The notes beneath the pieces were generated by a model. The model searched no databases and had not been told where the DNA came from. It saw only the letters and a program-made list of their open reading frames with translations. Below are positions 4,407-64,000 of a stretch of DNA of 64,000 nucleotides, one piece after another. Every line of letters starts with the position of its first letter. Position 1 is the stretch's first letter. Source of the stretch: Eledone cirrhosa (taxonomy: Eukaryota); assembly GCA_964016885.1 (NCBI GenBank), contig OZ024752.1, positions 14,198,001-14,262,000 of the forward strand. The letters are read 5' to 3'. The translations under genes were made by a program, and so were the position numbers.

Positions 4407-5685
<1,279 letters not shown>

Positions 5686-5690
<5 letters not shown>

Positions 5691-6508
5691 ATGGATTCAC
5701 CGAACATTTATTATAATGCTCGGTGTGTTTGTAAAGAAACATCCCGTATTAAGCCGTAGTGTCTAGTAACCATCGCTGCTCGTTTGTTCAATACTGAGAA
5801 AGGAACGATGTACTAGTTTCAAACTTATTAGCTATCGTCAGCAACGTATACCCTTCTGCCAGATTGTTGAACGTATATAATTACCTTATGCATATTAACG
5901 GCTGAGTAACGCAATTTGCATATCGAGTCGGTTAATCGGCCGAGTGCACCGAAAACGACAAGTAGTATGTATATATACATACTACTGTACGTCTGTATAC
6001 ATATATGTATGTACGTGTACATACTTATATTTAAGTAACAGCCGTACTAAGAGTGGGAAATGAAATCTCGTTTCATTTTTACCGTTTGTCGTTTTCGGTG
6101 CACCCGGCCGATTAACCCACTCGATATGCAAATTGGGCTACTCAGCCGTTAATATGCATAAGGTAAGTATATACGTTCAACAATCTGGCAGAAGGGTATA
6201 CGTTGCTGACGATAGCTAATAAGCTTGAAACGAGTACAGGGTTCCTTTGTCAATGTTGAACAAATGAGCAACGATGGTTGCTAGACACTACGGCTTAATA
6301 CGGGATGTTTCTTTACAAACACACCGAGCATTATAATAAATGTTCGGTGAATCCATACGTACATATATATATGGGTGCATGTATGTATATATATATATAC
6401 ATACTACTGTACGTCTGTATACATATATGTATGTACGTGTACATACTTATATTTACGTAACAGCCGTACTAAGAGTGGGAAATGAAATTTCGTTTCATTT
6501 TTTCCGTT

Positions 6509-15081: not shown

Positions 15082-15420
15082 GTGACGTTTTTTTACAAAA
15101 TGAAAAATAACCGAGGTGTCCTACACGAGTGAAAGTATAAAGAAAAAAAGATGAAATCGAAAATGCAACTGGAGTCTTATTTAAAATATATATATATATA
15201 TTTATTTGGTTCCTTTACCGGTTTCGCAGTTCTGCTTTTCAAAAGTAGAGTTGAGATGGAGGGTCTGTGGTTTTTCTCAGATGTGAGAAAAACCACAGAC
15301 CCTCCATCTCAACTCTACTTTTGAAAAGCAGAACTGCGAAACCGGTAAAGGAACCAAATAAATATATATATATATATTTTAAATAAAACTCCAGTTGCAT
15401 TTTCGATTTCATCTTTTTTT

Positions 15421-15427
<7 letters not shown>
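15076..15427 (-). mobile_element. Fold-back element (family C): near-perfect hairpin of about 290 bp plus tail, carrying the 3' half of an HHR
   Basis: 15136-15278 and 15284-15427 are inverted repeats; each arm has GCGAAACCGGTA-aagg. Related copy at 47490-47815. Confidence 0.8.
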
Positions 15428-16871: not shown

Positions 16872-16931
<60 letters not shown>

Positions 16932-16935
<4 letters not shown>

Positions 16936-17391
16936 AACGAGTAGGACCCCGACGGCTGAGCTCGAGCCGTTTCGACGGCTAATTCTGGACTAAATGAAAA
17001 TGTTTATCCTGGTATACGAATAGCCGAGCTTCTCAGGGGGTAATTCCATATATAGTAAAAGTGATTGTCACAAGGATTGGTCAAAAGTTTGTTGTTGAGC
17101 CACATAATTGTATCATGGCAATTTGTGGAGGGATAGAAATATGTGTCTCAAAAACAAACTGTTGACCAATCCTTGTGACAATCACTTTTACCATATATGG
17201 AATTACCCCCTGAGAAGCTCGGCTATTCATATACCAGGATAAAAATGTTCATGTAGTTCAGAATTAGCCGTCGAAACGGCTTGAGCTCAGACGTCGGGGT
17301 CCTACTCGTTCCTATTACCCACTCTACTACCCTAAGTATTGAGTACTTTGGTGCGTTATGGTCCATCTGGTTCCTTACCACATTTCCTTCG

Positions 17392-17394
<3 letters not shown>
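16932..17394 (+). mobile_element. Longest family B fold-back element with two inverted HHR-like motifs
   Basis: Arms at about 16932-17098 and 17147-17314. The motif acccc-CTGAGAA-gctcggcta...tagccgtc-GAAAC-ggcttgagctcagac-GTC-ggggt is at 17205-17300 (+), mirrored at 16946-17041 (-). Confidence 0.75.
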
Positions 17395-17440
<46 letters not shown>

Positions 17441-17445
<5 letters not shown>

Positions 17446-20400
17446 TATGAAGAGAGAAGAAACATTTAGATATAATTAGTAATAAAATGTATCATACCTA
17501 AACTGTTCCTAAATTCCTCGACTACGTAGTTTCGTGGCATAAACAAAAACAATATATCAAAGATATAGAGTCCTTGCGAGGTCTGCCGACTTATCAAGAG
17601 GATACCTCATTTTACTAGTCTCAAGAACGCGTCTACACGACGTGAGAAAGAATCCCAAAAGGCGGAGGGGGAGATAGTCACGCGATATAACGGTCGAGAA
17701 ACAGAGCTAAGCCTCTTATAACCACGAAAAAAATACCACGGAGGCGGAGGGGGTATTCATATCGAGGCCGCAGAAGAGGTAGTGAAGAAGGCGAGAAGTA
17801 TGAGTAATGGAAGCTTTCCAGTTGTCCCCACACTTCAAAGATTGCTCGACCAGAGGGAGTTATTAATACATTTAGAAACACACAGATACATGCGGACACA
17901 CACATATATACATGAATGCATCCGCACCCAACTGTGAGTTAAGGGTGCCAACTTCACCGATGTTGCTCAATGAATGACTGGGACAGACCAATTCAGTTTG
18001 AACCAGACTGAACCAGTATCAGAGTTAAAAATACATTATGAAGAGAGAAGAAACATTTAGATATAATTAGTAATAAAATGTATCATACCTAAACTGTTCC
18101 TAAATTCCTCGACTACGTAGTTTCGTGGCATAAACAAAAACAATATATCAAAGATATAGAGTCCTTGCGAGGTCTGCCGACTTATCAAGAGGATACCTCA
18201 TTTTACTAGTCTCAAGAACGCGTCTACACGACGTGAGAAAGAATCCCAAAAGGCGGAGGGGGAGATAGTCACGCGATATAACGGTCGAGAAACAGAGCTA
18301 AGCCTCTTATAACCACGAAAAAAATACCACGGAGGCGGAGGGGGTATTCATATCGAGGCCGCAGAAGAGGTAGTGAAGAAGGCGAGAAGTATGAGTAATG
18401 GAAGCTTTCCAGTTGTCCCCACACTTCAAAGATTGCTCGACCAGAGGGAGTTATTAATACATTTAGAAACACACAGATACATGCGGACACACACATATAT
18501 ACATGAATGCATCCGCACCCAACTGTGAGTTAAGGGTGCCAACTTCACCGATGTTGCTCAATGAATGACTGGGACAGACCAATTCAGTTTGAACCAGACT
18601 GAACCAGTATCAGAGTTAAAAATACATTATGAAGAGAGAAGAAACATTTAGATATAATTAGTAATAAAATGTATCATACCTAAACTGTTCCTAAATTCCT
18701 CGACTACGTAGTTTCGTGGCATAAACAAAAACAATATATCAAAGATATAGAGTCCTTGCGAGGTCTGCCGACTTATCAAGAGGATACCTCATTTTACTAG
18801 TCTCAAGAACGCGTCTACACGACGTGAGAAAGAATCCCAAAAGGCGGAGGGGGAGATAGTCACGCGATATAACGGTCGAGAAACAGAGCTAAGCCTCTTA
18901 TAACCACGAAAAAAATACCACGGAGGCGGAGGGGGTATTCATATCGAGGCCGCAGAAGAGGTAGTGAAGAAGGCGAGAAGTATGAGTAATGGAAGCTTTC
19001 CAGTTGTCCCCACACTTCAAAGATTGCTCGACCAGAGGGAGTTATTAATACATTTAGAAACACACAGATACATGCGGACACACACATATATACATGAATG
19101 CATCCGCACCCAACTGTGAGTTAAGGGTGCCAACTTCACCGATGTTGCTCAATGAATGACTGGGACAGACCAATTCAGTTTGAACCAGACTGAACCAGTA
19201 TCAGAGTTAAAAATACATTATGAAGAGAGAAGAAACATTTAGATATAATTAGTAATAAAATGTATCATACCTAAACTGTTCCTGGGTGCGGATGCATTCA
19301 TGTATATATGTGTGTGTCCGCATGTATCTGTGTGTTTCTAAATGTATTAATAACTCCCTCTGGTCGAGCAATCTTTGAAGTGTGGGGACAACTGGAAAGC
19401 TTCCATTACTCATACTTCTCGCCTTCTTCACTACCTCTTCTGCGGCCTCGATATGAATACCCCCTCCGCCTCCGTGGTATTTTTTTCGTGGTTATAAGAG
19501 GCTTAGCTCTGTTTCTCGACCGTTATATCGCGTGACTATCTCCCCCTCCGCCTTTTGGGATTCTTTCTCACGTCGTGTAGACGCGTTCTTGAGACTAGTA
19601 AAATGAGGTATCCTCTTGATAAGTCGGCAGACCTCGCAAGGACTCTATATCTTTGATATATTGTTTTTGTTTATGCCACGAAACTACGTAGTCGAGGAAT
19701 TTAGGAACAATTTAGGTATGATACATTTTATTACTAATTATATCTAAATGTTTCTTCTCTCTTCATAATGTATTTTTAACTCTGATACTGGTTCAGTCTG
19801 GTTCAAACTGAATTGGTCTGTCCCAGTCATTCATTGAGCAACATCGGTGAAGTTGGCACCCTTAACTCACAGTTGGGTGCGGATGCATTCATGTATATAT
19901 GTGTGTGTCCGCATGTATCTGTGTGTTTCTAAATGTATTAATAACTCCCTCTGGTCGAGCAATCTTTGAAGTGTGGGGACAACTGGAAAGCTTCCATTAC
20001 TCATACTTCTCGCCTTCTTCACTACCTCTTCTGCGGCCTCGATATGAATACCCCCTCCGCCTCCGTGGTATTTTTTTCGTGGTTATAAGAGGCTTAGCTC
20101 TGTTTCTCGACCGTTATATCGCGTGACTATCTCCCCCTCCGCCTTTTGGGATTCTTTCTCACGTCGTGTAGACGCGTTCTTGAGACTAGTAAAATGAGGT
20201 ATCCTCTTGATAAGTCGGCAGACCTCGCAAGGACTCTATATCTTTGATATATTGTTTTTGTTTATGCCACGAAACTACGTAGTCGAGGAATTTAGGAACA
20301 GTTTAGGTATGATACATTTTATTACTAATTATATCTAAATGTTTCTTCTCTCTTCATAATGTATTTTTAACTCTGATACTGGTTCAGTCTGGTTCAAACT

Positions 20401-20523
20401 GAATTGGTCTGTCCCAGTCATTCATTGAGCAACATCGGTGAAGTTGGCACCCTTAACTCACAGTTGGGTGCGGATGCATTCATGTATATATGTGTGTGTC
20501 CGCATGTATCTGTGTGTTTCTAA

Positions 20524-20528
<5 letters not shown>
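17441..20528. mobile_element. 591-bp tandem array with central inversion; retrozyme-like
   Basis: Unit starts at 17441, 18032, 18623, 19214; orientation flips at about 19283, then about 2.1 inverted units to about 20528. Copies are essentially identical, with one HHR per full unit and TA tracts at both ends. Confidence 0.9.
19611..19698 (+). ncRNA. Type I hammerhead ribozyme, U3-A8 core variant (also 20202-20289 +; 17515-17602, 18106-18193, 18697-18784 -)
   Basis: tcctc-TTGATAA-gtcggca...tgccac-GAAACTACGTAGTC-gagga: stem I tcctc/gagga, stem II gt(c)ggca/tgccac, palindromic stem III ACTACGTAGT, GUC triplet. Confidence 0.8.
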
Positions 20529-20588
<60 letters not shown>

Positions 20589-20607
20589 GAGAGAAAGAGA
20601 AAGAGAA

Positions 20608-20852
20608 ATAGCTTCTAGAGAACAAGAACTGTTTCATTCGAAAGAAGTCATCAGGAAAGCCTCTGTCATTGTAATACATATAAATGCCACCGTATTACAA
20701 TGACAGTTGTCTTTCCTGATGATTTCTGTCGAATGAAACAGTTATAGACCTGTAGAGGCCATCTCTATATTAAATTTGATGTTTTCCCTCTACTAATGTA
20801 TTGAGTACCTTACTTACTGTGGTTACCCCCGATTGAACTCGGGACTCCCAAG
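20608..20852 (+). mobile_element. Fold-back element with two inverted degenerate HHR cores
   Basis: CTGATGA-tttctgtcgaat-GAAACAGTT at about 20716-20743 (+), mirrored at about 20627-20654 (-); stem I is poorly preserved; tail motif gtattgagtac. Confidence 0.6.
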
Positions 20853-24652: not shown

Positions 24653-25080
24653 ATCATCATCATCATGATCATTTAACTTCCATTCTCCGTGCTAGCATGG
24701 GTAAGACGGGTTGTCCCTTTGTGAAAGATCAGATCGAAAGCCCGTGTTTCGCTCAGACAGGGCTGATTTTGTCTTGGTTTCTACGACTGGATGCCCTTCT
24801 AAAGACATTAACAGTGAGTTCTGGTTTTTTTTTACCGTGTTACCTACACGGCCACTTCACAGCGATGACTGGCTGCTTGTTGCTATGACACCTACATGAC
24901 CATTTTACAGTGTGGCTTGGCACTTTCTGTCATGTCACCGACACAACCACTTTACAGTGTGGACTGGATGCTTTTTGACGTGACTCCTACACAACCCCTT
25001 TACAGTGGGAACTGGGCACTTTTGTCTTGGCACGTCCTACATGACCACTATAGAGTGAGACCTGAGCACTTTTGTCGTGG
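24653..25080 (-). mobile_element. Old non-LTR retroposon 3' end with (ATG)n tail (similar end at about 34535-34685, +)
   Basis: catcatcatgatcatttaacttccattctccgtgctagcatggg...ctggatgcccttc; a similar sequence is reversed at 34640-34682. Confidence 0.5.
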
Positions 25081-26020
25081 CTGGGGATGGTAAATATTTT
25101 TATCAATATCAAGTTTTACATCGCTTTCTACTTTTTTTCTTACAATATAAAGAATATTTCATTTGTATTAATATGAACCTTTTAATTATTTCACAATGGT
25201 CTTTGTAAACCATGAAGTTTGTATGCTGTTTATCACTAACTGAAATATTTGATAGATGGTGATCATTGGCCGCTTTCACTTTATCTTGTGTTTCTTCATG
25301 ACCCATTCCTTCTGCCTTCAGTTTAACAACTGGAGGATCTAATTATTTTAAACAGTTTCCGTGTTTTACATTTTAGTTTATACGTCAGAGATGACTTTCA
25401 TTTCCTTCTCTCTCCATGTCGCAAGTAATGTGTCGTGTAATTTACCATTTCCAAATAAGCTGGGAGGGCAATAATCCCGATTAAAAACTACTGCACGGGG
25501 TAGAGTTTATCCCTGTAAGCCTTTTTGTGAAGGCAGCCCGTCTAGGACAACATACATCCACACAACATCTCTCTCTCTGTATATATACAATTTGTGTGTG
25601 TGGGGTTGAAATCCGAAGGTAAAAGATCAAGGAAAACAGTACTCAATCCATTGCAAGAGAGCTTGTTTAGTATAAATATAGTTTCAGAAACTTAAGACAG
25701 ATGTGCTACCATTGTTTTCGGAGTCCAGTTATGGCGGGCACTGTATATTGAAGATGGCCATTTTAAAACTGGACCTTCATTTGGGCACCTTAATTGTATG
25801 AAACATTTTAAATACTATATAATATTGAGTATGATCCAATGTTGTAGCCGCAATATAGCATCTACAAAGCACTCAGTAGTGCAACAGGTTAATACATTAT
25901 CGACCAGATTAAACAAATGTTAAGTGTGACACAAAGAAAAGCAGCAAAACACAAAGGTATAGCCACGGCTTTTGCTGCTTGTCTTGGTGTCACATTCTTA
26001 ACTATATATAATCATAATAA

Positions 26021-35375: not shown

Positions 35376-36140
35376 ATATACACCAGGTCTCAACACAAAG
35401 GAACCAAACTCCCAACGTCACTGGCTCCGATTCTCCCACTCTCCCCATCTCTCTTATACACCAGCCCTCAACACAAAGGAACCGAACTCCCACTGTCACT
35501 GCCTCCGATTGTCCCACTCTCCCCATCTCTCTTATACACCAGCCCTCAACACAAAGGAACCAAACTCCCACTGCCACTGCCTCGGATTCTCCCACTCTCC
35601 CCGTCTCTCTTATACACCAGGTCTCAACACAAAGGAACCAAACTCCCACTACCACTGCGCCTCTCTCTTCCACTCTCCCCATCTCTCTTATACACCAGGT
35701 CTCAACACAAAGGAACCAATCTCCCACTCCCACTGCGTCTCTCCCTCCCACTCTCCCCATCTCTCTTATACACCAGGTCTCAACACAAAGGAACCAAACT
35801 CCCACTACCACTGCGCCTCTCCCTCCCACTCTCCCCATCTCTCTTATACAACAGGTCTCAACACAAAGGAACAAACTCCCACTACCACTGCGTCTCTCCC
35901 TCCCACTCTCCCCATCTCTCTTATACAACAGGTCTCAACACAAAGGAACCAAACTCCCACTACCACTGCGTCTCTCCCTCCCACTCTCCCCATCTCTTTT
36001 ATACAATATGTCTCAACACAAAGGAACCAAACTCCCACTACCACTGGGTCTCTCCCTCCCACTATCCCCATCTCTCTTATACAACAGGTCTCAACACAAA
36101 GGAACCAATCCCCCACTGTCACTGCCTCCGATTCTCCCTC
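35376..36140. repeat. 78-bp minisatellite, about 10 copies
   Basis: Unit caggtctcaacacaaaggaaccaaactcccac...ctctccccatctctcttataca; 26-aa periodicity in the ORF track. Confidence 0.95.
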
Positions 36141-36279
36141 TCTCTCCGTCTCTCACAATTTTGAGCAAATGGAGGGTCCACTCACTGGCCAGACTGCGGC
36201 CCCGGTGGAGAGGATAGAGAAGATGTTCCCGGGAGACATGCTGGAAGAACCATTCCAACTGATGAGGCTAATGGTGATG

Positions 36280-49530: not shown

Positions 49531-52500
49531 ATATTCTATGTCTATATTCACATATATATCGCTATTTCAGAGCATTTATTCCAATTTCTAATTTCTGCCG
49601 GACCGGCAACCGCTCTTTCAAACCAGTTCCTGTACACAGCTAAGTATTCTATAAGTCTCTAGCTGTGTCATTCTCGATAAAAGCACTGGATATGTAGTCC
49701 TGATGATTTCTAACGAGAATGAAACGCGTAGATTACTTCCCTTGCTTTTATCGAGAATCTAATTGTAATACGTGACGTATTCTATTCTATAGCGATTAGG
49801 TCTTCAAAATGTTTATTATAAACATACAGAATATTTTCGAATATTCTATGTCTATATTCACATATATATCGCTATTTCAGAGCATTTATTCCAATTTCTA
49901 ATTTCTGCCGGACCGGCAACCGCTCTTTCAAACCAGTTCCTGTACACAGCTAAGTATTCTATAAGTCTCTAGCTGTGTCATTCTCGATAAAAGCACTGGA
50001 TATGTAGTCCTGATGATTTCTAACGAGAATGAAACGCGTAGATTACTTCCCTTGCTTTTATCGAGAATCTAATTGTAATACGTGACGTATTCTATTCTAT
50101 AGCGATTATGTCTTCAAAATGTTTATTATAAACATACAGAATATTTTCGAATATTCTATGTCTATATTCACATATATATCGCTATTTCAGAGCATTTATT
50201 CCAATTTCTAATTTCTGCCGGACCGGCAACCGCTCTTTCAAACCAGTTCCTGTACACAGCTAAGTATTCTATAAGTCTCTAGCTGTGTCATTCTCGATAA
50301 AAGCACTGGATATGTAGTCCTGATGATTTCTAACGAGAATGAAACGCGTAGATTACTTCCCTTGCTTTTATCGAGAATCTAATTGTAATACGTGACGTAT
50401 TCTATTCTATAGCGATTAGGTCTTCAAAATGTTTATTATAAACATACAGAATATTTTCGAATATTCTATGTCTATATTCACATATATATCGCTATTTCAG
50501 AGCATTTATTCCAATTTCTAATTTCTGCCGGACCGGCAACCGCTCTTTCAAACCAGTTCCTGTACACAGCTAAGTATTCTATAAGTCTCTAGCTGTGTCA
50601 TTCTCGATAAAAGCACTGGATATGTAGTCCTGATGATTTCTAACGAGAATGAAACGCGTAGATTACTTCCCTTGCTTTTATCGAGAATCTAATTGTAATA
50701 CGTGACGTATTCTATTCTATAGCGATTAGGTCTTCAAAATGTTTATTATAAACATACAGAATATTTTCGAATATTCTATGTCTATATTCACATATATATC
50801 GCTATTTCAGAGCATTTATTCCAATTTCTAATTTCTGCCGGACCGGCAACCGCTCTTTCAAACCAGTTCCTGTACACAGCTAAGTATTCTATAAGTCTCT
50901 AGCTGTGTCATTCTCGATAAAAGCACTGGATATGTAGTCCTGATGATTTCTAACGAGAATGAAACGCGTAGATTACTTCCCTTGCTTTTATCGAGAATCT
51001 AATTGTAATACGTGACGTATTCTATTCTATAGCGATTAGGTCTTCAAAATGTTTATTATAAACATACAGAATATTTTCGAATATTCTATGTCTATATTCA
51101 CATATATATCGCTATTTCAGAGCATTTATTCCAATTTCTAATTTCTGCCGGACCGGCAACCGCTCTTTCAAACCAGTTCCTGTACACAGCTAAGTATTCT
51201 ATAAGTCTCTAGCTGTGTCATTCTCGATAAAAGCACTGGATATGTAGTCCTGATGATTTCTAACGAGAATGAAACGCGTAGATTACTTCCCTTGCTTTTA
51301 TCGAGAATCTAATTGTAATACGTGACGTATTCTATTCTATAGCGATTAGGTCTTCAAAATGTTTATTATAAACATACAGAATATTTTCGAATATTCTATG
51401 TCTATATTCACATATATATCGCTATTTCAGAGCATTTATTCCAATTTCTAATTTCTGCCGGACCGGCAACCGCTCTTTCAAACCAGTTCCTGTACACAGC
51501 TAAGTATTCTATAAGTCTCTAGCTGTGTCATTCTCGATAAAAGCACTGGATATGTAGTCCTGATGATTTCTAACGAGAATGAAACGCGTAGATTACTTCC
51601 CTTGCTTTTATCGAGAATCTAATTGTAATACGTGACGTATTCTATTCTATAGCGATTAGGTCTTCAAAATGTTTATTATAAACATACAGAATATTTTCGA
51701 ATATTCTATGTCTATATTCACATATATATCGCTATTTCAGAGCATTTATTCCAATTTCTAATTTCTGCCGGACCGGCAACCGCTCTTTCAAACCAGTTCC
51801 TGTACACAGCTAAGTATTCTATAAGTCTCTAGCTGTGTCATTCTCGATAAAAGCACTGGATATGTAGTCCTGATGATTTCTAACGAGAATGAAACGCGTA
51901 GATTACTTCCCTTGCTTTTATCGAGAATCTAATTGTAATACGTGACGTATTCTATTCTATAGCGATTAGGTCTTCAAAATGTTTATTATAAACATACAGA
52001 ATATTTTCGAATATTCTATGTCTATATTCACATATATATCGCTATTTCAGAGCATTTATTCCAATTTCTAATTTCTGCCGGACCGGCAACCGCTCTTTCA
52101 AACCAGTTCCTGTACACAGCTAAGTATTCTATAAGTCTCTAGCTGTGTCATTCTCGATAAAAGCACTGGATATGTAGTCCTGATGATTTCTAACGAGAAT
52201 GAAACGCGTAGATTACTTCCCTTGCTTTTATCGAGAATCTAATTGTAATACGTGACGTATTCTATTCTATAGCGATTAGGTCTTCAAAATGTTTATTATA
52301 AACATACAGAATATTTTCGAATATTCTATGTCTATATTCACATATATATCGCTATTTCAGAGCATTTATTCCAATTTCTAATTTCTGCCGGACCGGCAAC
52401 CGCTCTTTCAAACCAGTTCCTGTACACAGCTAAGTATTCTATAAGTCTCTAGCTGTGTCATTCTCGATAAAAGCACTGGATATGTAGTCCTGATGATTTC

Positions 52501-54825
52501 TAACGAGAATGAAACGCGTAGATTACTTCCCTTGCTTTTATCGAGAATCTAATTGTAATACGTGACGTATTCTATTCTATAGCGATTAGGTCTTCAAAAT
52601 GTTTATTATAAACATACAGAATATTTTCGAATATTCTATGTCTATATTCACATATATATCGCTATTTCAGAGCATTTATTCCAATTTCTAATTTCTGCCG
52701 GACCGGCAACCGCTCTTTCAAACCAGTTCCTGTACACAGCTAAGTATTCTATAAGTCTCTAGCTGTGTCATTCTCGATAAAAGCACTGGATATGTAGTCC
52801 TGATGATTTCTAACGAGAATGAAACGCGTAGATTACTTCCCTTGCTTTTATCGAGAATCTAATTGTAATACGTGACGTATTCTATTCTATAGCGATTAGG
52901 TCTTCAAAATGTTTATTATAAACATACAGAATATTTTCGAATATTCTATGTCTATATTCACATATATATCGCTATTTCAGAGCATTTATTCCAATTTCTA
53001 ATTTCTGCCGGACCGGCAACCGCTCTTTCAAACCAGTTCCTGTACACAGCTAAGTATTCTATAAGTCTCTAGCTGTGTCATTCTCGATAAAAGCACTGGA
53101 TATGTAGTCCTGATGATTTCTAACGAGAATGAAACGCGTAGATTACTTCCCTTGCTTTTATCGAGAATCTAATTGTAATACGTGACGTATTCTATTCTAT
53201 AGCGATTAGGTCTTCAAAATGTTTATTATAAACATACAGAATATTTTCGAATATTCTATGTCTATATTCACATATATATCGCTATTTCAGAGCATTTATT
53301 CCAATTTCTAATTTCTGCCGGACCGGCAACCGCTCTTTCAAACCAGTTCCTGTACACAGCTAAGTATTCTATAAGTCTCTAGCTGTGTCATTCTCGATAA
53401 AAGCACTGGATATGTAGTCCTGATGATTTCTAACGAGAATGAAACGCGTAGATTACTTCCCTTGCTTTTATCGAGAATCTAATTGTAATACGTGACGTAT
53501 TCTATTCTATAGCGATTAGGTCTTCAAAATGTTTATTATAAACATACAGAATATTTTCGAATATTCTATGTCTATATTCACATATATATCGCTATTTCAG
53601 AGCATTTATTCCAATTTCTAATTTCTGCCGGACCGGCAACCGCTCTTTCAAACCAGTTCCTGTACACAGCTAAGTATTCTATAAGTCTCTAGCTGTGTCA
53701 TTCTCGATAAAAGCACTGGATATGTAGTCCTGATGATTTCTAACGAGAATGAAACGCGTAGATTACTTCCCTTGCTTTTATCGAGAATCTAATTGTAATA
53801 CGTGACGTATTCTATTCTATAGCGATTAGGTCTTCAAAATGTTTATTATAAACATACAGAATATTTTCGAATATTCTATGTCTATATTCACATATATATC
53901 GCTATTTCAGAGCATTTATTCCAATTTCTAATTTCTGCCGGACCGGCAACCGCTCTTTCAAACCAGTTCCTGTACACAGCTAAGTATTCTATAAGTCTCT
54001 AGCTGTGTCATTCTCGATAAAAGCACTGGATATGTAGTCCTGATGATTTCTAACGAGAATGAAACGCGTAGATTACTTCCCTTGCTTTTATCGAGAATCT
54101 AATTGTAATACGTGACGTATTCTATTCTATAGCGATTAGGTCTTCAAAATGTTTATTATAAACATACAGAATATTTTCGAATATTCTATGTCTATATTCA
54201 CATATATATCGCTATTTCAGAGCATTTATTCCAATTTCTAATTTCTGCCGGACCGGCAACCGCTCTTTCAAACCAGTTCCTGTACACAGCTAAGTATTCT
54301 ATAAGTCTCTAGCTGTGTCATTCTCGATAAAAGCACTGGATATGTAGTCCTGATGATTTCTAACGAGAATGAAACGCGTAGATTACTTCCCTTGCTTTTA
54401 TCGAGAATCTAATTGTAATACGTGACGTATTCTATTCTATAGCGATTAGGTCTTCAAAATGTTTATTATAAACATACAGAATATTTTCGAATATTCTATG
54501 TCTATATTCACATATATATCGCTATTTCAGAGCATTTATTCCAATTTCTAATTTCTGCCGGACCGGCAACCGCTCTTTCAAACCAGTTCCTGTACACAGC
54601 TAAGTATTCTATAAGTCTCTAGCTGTGTCATTCTCGATAAAAGCACTGGATATGTAGTCCTGATGATTTCTAACGAGAATGAAACGCGTAGATTACTTCC
54701 CTTGCTTTTATCGAGAATCTAATTGTAATACGTGACGTATTCTATTCTATAGCGATTAGGTCTTCAAAATGTTTATTATAAACATACAGAATATTTTCGA
54801 ATATTCTATGTCTATATTCACATAT
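49531..54825 (+). mobile_element. 310-bp x 17 tandem array, each unit with a type I HHR (non-LTR retrozyme-like)
   Basis: Unit starts at 49531, 49841 ... 54491, plus about 25 bp from 54801. Only one substitution noticed (50109). No ORF; TA-rich microsatellite on both sides. Confidence 0.93.
49670..49758 (+). ncRNA. Type I hammerhead ribozyme with extended stem I (first of 17; repeats every 310 bp)
   Basis: attctcgataaaagca-ctggatat-gtagtc-CTGATGA-tttctaacgagaat-GAAACGCGTA-gattac-ttccct-tgcttttatcgagaat; 16-bp perfect outer helix, palindromic ACGCGT stem III, predicted cleavage after 49730. Confidence 0.92.
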
Positions 54826-54890
54826 CTATATATATATATATGAATATATATATTGATGTAATATATATATATAAATATGAATATATATAT

Positions 54891-60489: not shown

Positions 60490-60876
60490 TATGTATATAT
60501 ATATATGTATATATATATGAATATATGTATATGAATATGTATATATATATATATATATGAATATATATATATATGTACATATATGTATATATATATATAT
60601 ATATATACATTTATATATATATATATATATATGTACATATATATATATATATATTTCGTTTCTGAATTTGTTTAGCAAGATTCTTTATCTGAAATCATGT
60701 GTTGAAACCGATATTGTTATACTTTGGGAGGGTCATGTTGCCAATAAGAAACACACGCACCAGTTGCTTTCACTTCAATTTATTATATATTTATAAATTT
60801 ATAAATTTACAAATCTACAAACCTATAAATTTCTGGTTGGTTGGTTGGTTCCACAACCAGATAGTTGTTTATATAT

Positions 60877-60921
60877 AGTCATAGTCCTTTCGTCACACAC
60901 TATGTAACCTCTTCAGTGACT
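60877..60921 (-). ncRNA. Minimal type I hammerhead ribozyme in pLTR
   Basis: agtca-CTGAAGA-ggttacatagtgtgtgac-GAAAGGACTA-tgact; stem I agtca/tgact, CUA triplet. Confidence 0.8.
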
Positions 60922-61267
60922 GGGGATTCCTTTCTTTGTTTCTGTGCCTTTCCTTTCTTCTATCCTACGCCATTTTGTTTCTGTGTGTGTGTTGTGTGCT
61001 CAGTTTGCGCATGCGCCACATCCGGGTATCTGTGTGTGTTTGTGTTCATTTATCTATTTGTTTATTTATTTATTTATTTATTGTTGCTTGGTTGTTTGTT
61101 CTATGTTTGCGTGTGTTTTCATTTTCATTTTGTCCTGTGTGTGTTTTCATGTTGTCCTTAATTGTAAGTTGTTTGTTCTATGTGTGTGTGTGTTTTCATT
61201 TTGTCCTGTGTGTGTTTTCATTTTGTCCTTAATTGTAAGTTGTGACGTTGCTGTTCCACTCATATTC

Positions 61268-63198
61268 TTATTTTCTGTTTAATTTTGGTTGTAATTCTTT
61301 TATGCTTACTGCCTCTGTAATTTGCCTAAACATTGCATCTTTTCTGTGTGTGGATTCTATTTTTATTTCTATGTTCTCTAATCTACCCCTGTGTTCTATC
61401 TTAGCATGTTGGTAGAGCACAGATGATTCTTTATTATCTTGAAGGTCTCGCCAGTGTTCATTTATTCGTTCCCCTATACTACGAGCTGTCTCACCTATGT
61501 ACACTATATTTTTGTTTCTACATTGTCCTTCAGTACATCTTATGCTATACACTACATTTCTAGTTTTACAGTTAATATGGGGGCTTATTTTACAGGTTAT
61601 ACATTTCTTATCTATACATGAGGGTCTTTGGAACGGGTATGTCTTGCTAATAAGTGTTTTTACGGAGGTACCTGGTCTTTCTACTATCTTAATATTGAGT
61701 TTATGTTTATTTAGGGCCCTTCTAAATTTGTAGGCTAGTTCGCCTCTAGGGGTTGTATTGATGAACATTACACTCTGGTATTTATTGCTATCATACCATG
61801 AGTTTATTCTATTGGCCTTGTTCCTAGTTCTTTCTATTCTATTCCAAAATTTGCTCCTATACAAGGGGCAGGTCCCATTTATGTCATTATTTACCATTTT
61901 TTCCCATTTGGTTCTGGCTCCTTTATACACTCCAATTCTATCTCTCTGATTGTAGCCAGAGAACTGCATACGATGGATGAAGTGTTGTATGTGTCTCTCT
62001 AGTTCTTTGGGGTTGCACATGCGGGACACATTTTTCATCACCCGTACCAAATCTGCAATCAGTATGTTGATTTTGGTATGGTCCGAAATGGCCGAGTTTC
62101 GGTGGATCAGATGTTTGGAAGTCATGGGTTTGGCATAATGGGAATGGAGGATTATTTTTGGTTGTTAATGGTATCTAACCAGAGCTCTGTGTCTAGTACA
62201 GGTAATCGATGGTTGGGGTGTCTACTTGGGTAGTCTATAGTAACTCTAATGCTCTGGTGGATGGTGTTTGCTATTTGCTGGATGCTTTCCATTGTGTTTT
62301 TCTCTAGTTCCTGACTGTTCTTTAGTGGGGGTGTCTTAACTACGATGTTTATATCATCTACGTAGCGGGAGTACATTATCAGGGTTAAGCTGTCTTCTAA
62401 TTGTTCTTTAAGTTTTTGTTTAAGTCTACAGTCCCACCATACCATGAATAAGTTAGCTATGTCGCCTGCAATGCTAACACCAATGGCTGCTCCTTCCTCT
62501 TGGGCATATGTTTTACCATTAAATTTGAACATATGTTCCTTAAGGGTTAATTTTATGCTGGCCTCTACCGCATGTGCAATCATTTTCTTCAGTTCATCGT
62601 GGTTTTCGGGTGTCCGTATGGCTCTGGTCCATCCGTTCCATCTATCTGTGTGGGTTTTCTTGGCCATTGAGGTAATGGTATGTGGTCTGCCTCTTGCTGG
62701 TCTTGTAGGGCACAGGTTGCTAAGGTCATAAGTGTCTAGGTAACTATTACTATGGGTAAGCTTAAGTAGAAGTCCCAGCTCACTGGTATCAATCCCACGG
62801 AACTCAACCTTGCTCTCGCTGATCATTTCTACGCATTTCTCCACAGCAAAATCCACGTCAATAGATGGATACAGGGACACAACATCCATACTGCCTATTA
62901 TGCAGTTTGTTAGGTCCCCAGATCGGTTACCCGCGCCGATTCTGCTGAGGAGCTCCTCCGTGCTGTCACATACGTCTGGGGACATCTCAATAATGGGGCG
63001 TATGATCAGGGAGAGGAAGTAGGACAGTCTGTAGTTACTAGCAATGTTAGCCCCACAGACTGGCCGTGTTGGTGGTCCCGCGACAGGGTCCCAGCCCGTT
63101 TTATGGTCTTTTCGAAGCCCATACAACGCCGGCACGTCATTGTTCCAGGCCTGTAAGTTGTTGGCAGTCCTTTTGTTGGGCTGCATTATGTTCGTCCA
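61268..63198 (-). pseudogene. PLE reverse transcriptase plus GIY-YIG endonuclease (one frameshift near 62155, 5'-truncated)
   Basis: LYGLRKDHK, PTRPV, SMDVVSLYPSI, QEEGAAIG, RYVDD, LPVLD, HYAKP; Cys linker C-x4-C-x2-C-x6-C; NVVYSIRC..YIGETARS..ER..EH. Confidence 0.93.
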
Positions 63199-63349
63199 TA
63201 TATATATCTGGTTGTGGAACCAACCAACCAACCAGAAATTTATAGGTTTGGAGATTTGTAAATTTATAAATTTATAAATATATAATAAATTGAAGTGAAA
63301 GCAAATGGTGCGTGTGTTTCTTATTGGCAACATGACCCTCCCAAAGTAT

Positions 63350-64000
<651 letters not shown>

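What the first reader, a model, noticed from the sequence alone, without database searches (positions are those of the whole stretch)
17441..20528. 591-bp HHR array folded into a 3-kb palindrome
Seen: about 3.1 identical units in one direction, an abrupt switch at about 19283, then about 2.1 units inverted. The two outer ends fall at different phases of the unit, yet both join the (TA)n tract at an ATACATT motif. Inference: multimer arms with unrelated phases fit reverse transcription of a circular or multimeric RNA primed by microhomology to TA repeats, with a PLE-style inversion (twin priming or template switch). The ribozyme-sense strands point outward from the centre, so read-through in either direction gives self-cleaving RNA and long dsRNA. 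The unit is longer than typical metazoan non-LTR retrozymes as I recall them.
Basis: partly seen in the sequence, partly recalled or inferred. Interest (0 to 1): 0.85.

Follow-up and report, generated by a model that had tools for sequence, protein, structure and literature searches.

The report
Two-armed Penelope-type hammerhead retrozyme insertion
This 3-kb mirror-image array is one young copy of a non-coding repeat with thousands of copies and a predicted self-cutting RNA motif; its two-armed copies pair one fixed start point with the other, which suggests that both ends of a DNA cut copy the same small, probably circular, RNA.

Summary
Observation confirmed: 3.12 units of 591 bp, a switch at 19283, 2.11 inverted units, one substitution, (TA)n on both sides. 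The hammerhead is a U3-A8 minimal type I motif. Rfam misses it, but covariation in an older relative supports it.
Outer ends fall at two fixed sites 166 nt apart, A and B (1,941 and 1,918 genomic ends). All 60 two-armed loci with A/B ends pair A with B, as do 39 of 39 coordinate pairs. Inner junctions vary. The two arms share one haplotype (12 shared variants against 0.4 in permutations), and inherited variants fill every unit (52 of 55).
This fits a Penelope-like (PLE) enzyme priming both cut strands on one monomer RNA, probably circular. A and B would be the two start sites that bound the PLE 'tail'. A coding PLE in the window has the same layout.
No RNA data, no reads across this junction, and no partner PLE were found. 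Retrozymes and one-sided tails are published. The scan noted this pairing before in other families.

The parts
17393..17442 (.). Left (TA)n target tract. It abuts the end of another fold-back repeat (16931-17392). The target-site duplication cannot be defined inside pure TA.
17440..19283 (-). Left arm, 3.12 units of 591 bp. It starts at site A and reads as cDNA inward on +; the ribozyme sense is on -.
17441..18031 (-). Reference 591-bp unit, non-coding. The RNA-sense monomer folds with z -6.2 (linear, 100 shuffles) and -6.0 (circular, 60 shuffles).
17440..17447 (+). Outer end at site A (phase 591/1, ATACATT), the tail-less start.
17516..17601 (-). Hammerhead copy 1: stem I CCUC/GAGG, core UUGAUAA (U3-A8), long stem II, GAAAC, 2-bp stem III with palindromic loop UACGUA, GUC. 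Predicted cut between 17520 and 17519.
18107..18192 (-). Hammerhead copy 2.
18698..18783 (-). Hammerhead copy 3.
19283..19283 (.). Inversion junction: phase 70 joined to phase 490 through a 1-nt overlap. Each examined locus has its own junction.
19283..20529 (+). Right arm, 2.11 units, starting at site B; ribozyme sense on +. One substitution at 19710.
19612..19697 (+). Hammerhead copy 4; predicted cut after 19693.
20203..20288 (+). Hammerhead copy 5; predicted cut after 20284.
20364..20529 (+). 166-nt 'tail' between site A and site B, present at this outer end only. It holds hairpins conserved in the older relative family.
20522..20529 (-). Outer end at site B (phase 426, ATACATT on the - strand).
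20527..20588 (.). Right (TA)n target tract.

Best explanation
This is a very young insertion of a non-coding 591-nt repeat with a predicted hammerhead ribozyme (an animal retrozyme), likely copied into a TA microsatellite by a borrowed Penelope-like (PLE) reverse transcriptase-endonuclease that would prime both cut DNA ends on one monomer RNA, probably a circle. Steps: (1, inferred) a multi-unit arm is transcribed, two hammerheads cleave as a dimer, and the monomer is ligated. (2, inferred from published PLE biochemistry) the PLE protein, possibly a dimer, binds that RNA and nicks both strands of (TA)n. (3, shown as a footprint) one DNA end starts at site A and the other at site B, 166 nt away. 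(4, inferred) each enzyme copies round the template for a variable distance, 26 nt to 7.2 units. (5, shown as a footprint) the two cDNAs are joined head to head with 0-5 nt of overlap or a short filler. If only one end primes, a single arm results.
For: Fixed ends: 1,941 A and 1,918 B exact TA-joined ends in the genome. Pairing: 39 of 39 inward-facing pairs within 10 kb on the first 129 Mb of C1 are A+B (100 A and 95 B ends). 60 of 60 sequenced two-armed loci with both outer ends at A or B are A+B, out of 98 loci; the two samples overlap. One template: among 27 young two-armed loci the arms share 12 non-consensus variants and differ at 9, against 0.41 and 32.6 in 5,000 re-pairings (maximum shared 5). 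The 14 mixed-age loci give 43 against 8.3. Monomer bottleneck: variants seen at 3 or more loci fill all passes of a locus in 52 of 55 cases. 23 private variants are fixed, among them 6 of 6 passes over both arms in L116 and 4 of 4 in L068 and L071, while 104 private variants sit in one unit only. Continuous template: 88 of 101 arms cross the predicted cut, and 273 crossings show no indel within 6 nt. Junctions: 29 of 36 filler-free joins have at least 1 nt of overlap against 43.5% by chance; 12 of 48 have fillers. Ribozyme: in an about 70% identical older family the core is kept, loop 3 changes among three palindromes (21 of 26 matches perfect), and the first stem I pair goes C-G to U-G or U-A. 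U3-A8 cores and palindromic helix III are described for PLE hammerheads (PMC4209133). PLE footprint: a coding PLE in the window has inverted ends in (TA)n about 57-60 nt apart, and L159, L160 and L167 pair the two ends the same way. A purified PLE protein cuts and extends both strands and starts at two internal sites that bound the tail (PMC11167929).
Against: No RNA was seen, and cleavage is untested. The isolated motif has z -0.18, and the active fold is 1.4 kcal/mol above the minimum. In vitro, PLE insertion did not need hammerhead cleavage and used unprocessed RNA (PMC11167929). 8 of 9 Xenopus retrozyme dimers did not cleave. Arms can exchange sequence after insertion: L053, L060 and L065 share single-unit variants across arms, so some sharing may be conversion or assembly polishing. 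In the set the discordance test was not significant (6 against 8.6, p 0.11). Two loci have a second inverted arm starting at neither site (L063 at phase 44, L066 at phase 511). Two short A arms end at the predicted cut (L121, L125), which hints at linear cleaved templates. No partner PLE with a matching pLTR was found. The old-family covariation reflects a few events, not 26.
Confidence: 0.68

Rival explanations
1. Same PLE-type double priming at A and B, but on an uncleaved linear multimeric transcript; no circle is involved and the hammerhead is incidental.
For: Unprocessed RNA was the main substrate in vitro (PMC11167929). Seamless crossing of the cut site is expected here too. L053 carries a single-unit variant in register from the outer ends. 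Minimal hammerheads cleave poorly (PMC4209133).
Against: Inherited variants fill all units (52 of 55), and private variants are fixed over up to 6 passes, which needs a one-unit bottleneck. There are 19 haplotypes among 48 multi-unit loci. Arms reach 7.2 units and 49 of 101 exceed one unit, whereas linear copying should shorten them over generations. The shared variants of L060 and L065 are out of register.
Confidence: 0.17
2. Each arm is copied from a different RNA molecule (dual priming), with the site choice imposed by the enzyme.
For: It would allow arm lengths to be independent; their correlation is weak (rho 0.23, p 0.16, n 41).
Against: The arms share haplotypes far above re-paired controls. 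The window carries the minority allele at phase 331 (2 of 31 in the unbiased young set) in all 5 passes of both arms.
Confidence: 0.04
3. A DNA-level fold-back: the second arm is copied from the first, or a palindromic DNA element loses its centre by deletion.
For: It explains shared haplotypes, and cross-arm sharing of single-unit variants occurs at 3 loci.
Against: In 18 of 41 unbiased two-armed loci neither arm could contain the other. Single A-only and B-only arms both occur (17 and 21). The two ends are different sequences, not terminal inverted repeats. RNA-level covariation is present.
Confidence: 0.06
4. A fold-back read or assembly artefact.
For: No listed contig spans 19283, and palindromes are a known long-read hazard (own knowledge).
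Against: The arms are unequal, the centre is asymmetric, the flanks are unrelated, and the outer ends sit at family-wide sites. 60 other-or-same loci have their own junctions, including aged copies and a junction duplicated in L075. Contigs of run X2 show 4 other joints of this kind.
Confidence: 0.02
5. The unit is only the pLTR of a coding PLE, left as truncated tandem copies.
For: The hammerhead type, target, tail and inversion are those of PLEs.
Against: In all 98 loci the arms end at a junction or in flank. PLE coding fragments found nearby by tblastn lie apart from the arms. The unit gives only microsatellite-like hits against 42 loci of the window's PLE family and against the other PLE ends examined. 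Origin from a pLTR remains likely.
Confidence: 0.03

Closest known systems
Animal non-LTR retrozymes (Cervera and de la Pena 2020, PMC7229834: passages and Discussion read; Li, Clavereau and Pollet 2026, 10.64898/2026.07.22.740005: parts 1-3 of 5 read, supplements closed)
   Same: Non-coding tandem units, each with a type I hammerhead; dispersed; coexisting with PLEs; circle-templated tandem cDNA proposed; length within the reported 51-972 bp.
   Different: In the passages read, these papers describe head-to-tail arrays without inverted arms, fixed paired start sites or (TA)n targeting ('inverted' and 'microsatellite' occur 0 times in PMC7229834). Circles were shown there by northern blot and are only inferred here.
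Complex insertions of EN+ Penelope-like elements: partial tandem, inverted 5'-truncated copy, 30-40-bp tail often at one end only (Craig et al. 2021, PMC8557442, passages; Arkhipova et al. 2013, PMC3846280, passages)
   Same: Head-to-head inverted arms, tail at one end, microsatellite target, hammerhead in the repeat.
   Different: No ORF; the tail is 166 nt; both arms can be multi-unit; either arm can carry the tail. Arkhipova 2013 explains inversions by self-priming on an antisense template, which does not predict fixed paired outer ends with variable asymmetric centres.
Anolis Poseidon PLE in vitro (Frangieh et al. 2024, PMC11167929, parts 1-2 of 4 read)
   Same: Two internal start sites bounding the tail, both strands cut and extended, AT-rich target, predicted dimer.
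   Different: That work saw no strand difference in start site and did not test whether one RNA serves both strands, one site each. The genomic rule here implies it does.
L1 twin priming and dual priming (Meyer et al. 2010, PMC2837659, passages)
   Same: Two primers on the same RNA give an inversion with a microhomology join.
   Different: In L1 the second site is internal and variable, and the fragments do not overlap. Here both sites are fixed, and the arms overlap: 22 of 41 run past each other's start, and only 5 of 60 abut, against 6 by chance.
Minimal PLE hammerheads with U3-A8 core (PMC4209133, passages; PMC3088659, passages)
   Same: U3-A8 pair, short helix III with palindromic loop, predicted dimer cleavage.
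   Different: Stem II is much longer here (about 57 nt between the core strands).

Membership tests
Animal non-LTR retrozyme | Tandem units, each with a type I hammerhead motif | tested here: met
   5 motifs in the window; 247 of 253 motif matches in young loci have identical stem I and loop 3
Animal non-LTR retrozyme | Non-coding and non-autonomous | tested here: met
   No stop-to-stop frame of 120 aa or more in 17441-20529
Animal non-LTR retrozyme | Dispersed mobile copies | tested here: met
   About 1,900 ends of each type; matches on many contigs
Animal non-LTR retrozyme | Self-cleavage of the RNA | not testable with these tools
   Only the core sequence and covariation are available; no Rfam hit
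Animal non-LTR retrozyme | Expression as monomeric circular RNA | tested here: inconclusive
   No RNA holder listed. The 621-nt cyclic contig of X1 can also come from tandem DNA. Support is indirect
PLE-mobilised element | Inverted 5'-truncated copy at the 5' side | tested here: met
   60 A+B two-armed loci of 98, plus two with 15-16-nt A stubs
PLE-mobilised element | Tail at one end only | tested here: met
   166-nt A-to-B extension at exactly one end in 60 of 60; longer than the 30-40 bp reported
PLE-mobilised element | Microsatellite or AT-rich target | tested here: met
   TA-rich tracts flank the two-armed loci
PLE-mobilised element | Homology to the pLTR of an autonomous partner | tested here: inconclusive
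   No match to the PLE families examined; the search was not genome-wide
PLE-mobilised element | Target-site duplication | tested here: inconclusive
   Masked by pure TA; 3 of 60 loci have candidate duplications inside periodic tracts
Autonomous PLE | RT and GIY-YIG ORF between pLTRs | tested here: not met
L1-type twin priming | Variable internal second site with adjacent, non-overlapping fragments | tested here: not met
   Fixed sites and overlapping arms; it works like twin priming but is not the L1 form

The most novel reading that the evidence does not exclude
A PLE enzyme dimer loads one 591-nt hammerhead RNA circle at two fixed sites, one per cut DNA strand, and two reverse transcriptases chase each other round it, writing both arms from a single molecule. 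The PLE tail and inverted pLTR would then be the general footprint of two-site priming on one RNA, and these loci would be genomic records of rolling-circle reverse transcription in an animal germ line.
Probability: 0.5. Interest if true: 0.78.

Novelty: new variant of a known kind. Interest (0 to 1): 0.58.

Why it matters
How PLEs make their tandem and inverted insertions is stated to be unsolved (PMC8557442), and that retrozyme circles serve as templates is a proposal (PMC7229834). This family turns both into counts: about 1,900 ends of each type, a strict one-A-one-B rule, one haplotype per locus. It gives sharp predictions for the existing in vitro PLE system and names a small RNA with two mapped start sites to test. 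If the circle step holds, one RNA circle can be written into a genome from both ends of a break. My searches found no paper stating the pairing rule or the shared haplotype, but the library lacks most subscription papers. The parts themselves are known.

Tried and rejected
Rfam gave no match at the gathering score in the window and no hammerhead family at E up to 10 in 19400-19900. The first two B-end patterns were too narrow (33 and 144 hits) and briefly suggested B was rare; the widened pattern gave 1,918. Sequencing runs: no RNA holder listed. No listed contig bridges 19283 (only some pieces are shown, and the individual may differ). X22 laid no reads. The cyclic contigs in X1 and X5 were rejected as evidence of circular RNA, since tandem DNA gives the same. 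Partner search: the window's PLE family (15,990 candidates, 150 scored) and ends of other PLE families in 8 loci show no homology to the unit. The 434-aa frame beside an old copy (L188) has no Pfam hit. Target-site duplications could not be read. Inner ends do not pile up at the predicted cut (3 of 158 at phases 76-82). Microhomology alone as the cause of site choice was rejected, and site B keeps its position in the old family although its sequence differs. L1-type abutting arms were rejected. Arm lengths deviate mildly from an exponential (KS p 0.04) and were not used. The look-up of earlier findings by sequence was empty.

Full report
Observation. The region has an exact period of 591. The left arm 17440-19283 holds 3.12 identical units. 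The right arm 19283-20529 holds 2.11 inverted units with one substitution (19710). The arms overlap by one base. With 17441 as phase 1, the outer ends are phase 591/1 (site A) and phase 426 (site B), and the inner ends are phases 70 and 490. Both outer ends read ATACATT against (TA)n tracts. There is no frame of 120 aa or more. The genome is 3.0 Gb. The nearest named homologue of a coding element from it is an Octopus vulgaris protein at 70%.

Ribozyme. Rfam finds nothing. By eye the outward-pointing strand has stem I CCUC/GAGG, core UUGAUAA, a long stem II, GAAAC, a 2-bp stem III closed by a palindromic hexamer, and GUC. There are five copies. The U3-A8 core and palindromic helix III are described for PLE hammerheads thought to act as dimers (PMC4209133, passages). 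U3-A8 variants are reported active (PMC3088659, passages). The isolated motif is not unusually stable (z -0.18), and the constrained fold is -21.5 against -22.9 kcal/mol. The whole monomer is structured (z about -6). An older family about 70% identical (1,866 candidates, 40 scored, 30 loci) keeps the core. Of 26 motif matches in 27 of those loci, loop 3 is a perfect palindrome in 21, in three different sequences, and the first stem I pair changes from C-G to U-G or U-A. These are a few events, not 26, but they are the changes a dimeric hammerhead allows. Cleavage is untested.

Family and ends. The unit search gave 1,199 candidates, of which 40 were scored. I fetched 37 such loci, the first 20 usable A-end loci and 40 B-end loci, which makes 98 with the window. 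Exact TA-joined ends number 1,941 for A and 1,918 for B; narrower B patterns gave 33 and 144. On the first 129 Mb of C1, 100 A and 95 B ends form 39 inward-facing pairs within 10 kb, all A+B. With equal site use, chance is 0.5 to the power 39. By sequence, 60 loci have two arms starting at A or B, and all are A+B. The other 38 were classed as single (17 A, 21 B). That class includes two B loci with 15-16-nt A stubs (L110, L122) and two loci whose second inverted arm starts elsewhere (L063, L066). L075 is a duplicated pair counted once. The samples overlap, and the B sample was drawn from the youngest subfamily. Many loci of the older family show the same geometry (not tallied). Better TA matches in the unit are unused, so microhomology does not choose the site. 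It may still stabilise priming: the outer copy has T for C in 6 of 70 A ends and 2 of 54 B ends whose inner copies have C, as a G-T wobble with the TA primer would give (inference).

Junctions and lengths. Inner ends differ from locus to locus. Of 60 junctions, 48 could be measured: 12 have fillers, and 29 of the other 36 overlap by 1-5 nt against 43.5% by chance. Arms run from 26 nt to 7.2 units, with medians of 653 (A) and 542 (B) in the 60 pattern-chosen loci. 88 of 101 arms cross the predicted cut, and 273 crossings have no indel within 6 nt, against 236 indel columns in 136,835 positions elsewhere. The template is therefore continuous at that bond. Two short A arms stop at phases 78 and 80, a weak hint of linear cleaved templates. 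In 22 of 41 loci each arm runs past the other's start, only 5 of 60 abut (6 expected), and in 18 of 41 neither arm could contain the other. This excludes L1-type twin priming (PMC2837659, passages) and simple DNA copying of one arm from the other.

One template, one unit. After leaving out the priming sites and three alignment-ambiguous zones, arms of 27 young loci share 12 non-consensus variants and differ at 9; 5,000 re-pairings give 0.41 (maximum 5) and 32.6 (minimum 17). The 14 mixed-age loci give 43 and 24 against 8.3 and 92.7. The query-biased set is weaker: 2 shared (p 0.008) and 6 discordant (p 0.11). Without those exclusions, 25 of 909 comparisons at informative sites were discordant, mostly in the excluded zones. 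Variants found at three or more loci fill every pass of a locus in 52 of 55 cases, 23 private variants are fixed, and 104 private variants are confined to one unit. Variants seen at two loci are mixed (11 fixed, 23 unit-specific). The window itself has the minority allele at phase 331 (2 of 31 unbiased loci) in all five passes. This is what copying round one monomer predicts. Against it: three loci share single-unit variants across arms, one in outer-end register, so conversion or polishing occurs.

PLE footprint. The window holds a coding PLE at about 60655-63355 (weak RT and GIY-YIG hits). It has inverted ends in (TA)n, a hammerhead core and two ends about 57-60 nt apart. Its family is young and huge (15,990 candidates, 97-98% among the 150 scored, frames to 1,294 aa). 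Of 42 loci, three showed both outer motifs, all one of each kind; 20 showed none and 19 showed one. Published PLE insertions have an inverted truncated copy and a 30-40-bp tail often at one end only (PMC8557442; PMC3846280). A purified PLE protein cuts and extends both strands and starts at two internal sites that bound the tail (PMC11167929). A and B are best read as such sites, with a 166-nt tail whose hairpins are conserved in the older family. No partner with a homologous pLTR was found.

Artefact check. No listed contig spans 19283. Unequal arms, unrelated flanks, family-wide end sites, aged copies and four other joints in run X2 make an artefact very unlikely. Runs under 17 organism labels hold part of the unit. 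I laid seven runs, and six showed it. No RNA holder was listed.

Mechanism and odds. A retrozyme moved by a PLE enzyme: about 0.9. Both ends primed on the same RNA molecule at fixed sites: about 0.85. That RNA being a monomer circle rather than a linear multimer: overall 0.68 against 0.17. Shown as genomic footprints are the fixed paired ends, the shared haplotype, the unit-wide fixation and the junction overlaps. Transcription, cleavage, ligation, the enzyme and simultaneity are inferred.

Novelty. Retrozymes, circle-templated tandems as a hypothesis (PMC4209133; PMC7229834), a PLE origin (10.64898/2026.07.22.740005; its supplements were closed and may list such families) and one-sided tails are in print. 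Searches showed no paper with the strict pairing rule or single-haplotype evidence. I reached this reading before looking at earlier scan notes (stated). Those notes report the same pattern in 310-, 467/468- and 487-nt families of this genome and in other genomes; they are unchecked and not independent support. Verdict: a real new variant of a known kind, valuable as a test bed for an open mechanism.

Noticed in passing
window 60655-63355: Two-armed coding PLE (RT + GIY-YIG, frame broken in this copy) in (TA)n, with a CUGAAGA hammerhead core and ends about 57-60 nt apart. It belongs to a young family with 15,990 candidates and frames to about 1,290 aa that include an asparagine-rich stretch.
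   Followed up: partly
window 49531-54829: 17.1 copies of a 310-bp unit at 99% identity between (TA)n tracts, with a CUGAUGA...GAAAC core; a second retrozyme-like family, already noted elsewhere by the scan.
   Followed up: no
window 16931-17392, 20604-20766, 15136-15427, 5598-6455: Short fold-back repeats beside TA tracts, some with hammerhead-like cores (15242 and 15321 have a U3-A8 core; 98.6% palindrome). They are likely truncated two-armed insertions of other families. The studied element sits in the TA tract that ends one of them.
   Followed up: no
unit phases 251-300 (window 17691-17740): Inner ends are enriched here: 19 of 101 against 8.5 expected (p 0.0008, bin chosen afterwards). 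This may be a reverse transcriptase pause at a U-run and stem.
   Followed up: partly
unit phases about 213-223 and 302-312 (window about 17653-17663 and 17742-17752): Two GC-box-like motifs upstream of the hammerhead are conserved between the young and old families; they are candidate internal promoter elements, which is speculative.
   Followed up: no
L098:1192-1208, L099:641-659: Junction fillers of 17-19 nt that resemble other parts of the unit, as in templated end joining.
   Followed up: no
L041:7557-10000, L092:471-4235, L111:1781-5540: A second PLE family, about 65% identical in protein to the window's, with two-armed copies. In L041 the two ends differ by a tail of about 46 nt.
   Followed up: partly
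runs X1-X20: The unit is held under 17 organism labels, 10 of them at half of its words or more. This suggests close relatives or recent spread between species; not resolved.
   Followed up: partly
window 35377-36154 and 24842-25081: Tandem arrays of 78 bp (10 copies) and 48 bp (4 copies).
   Followed up: no
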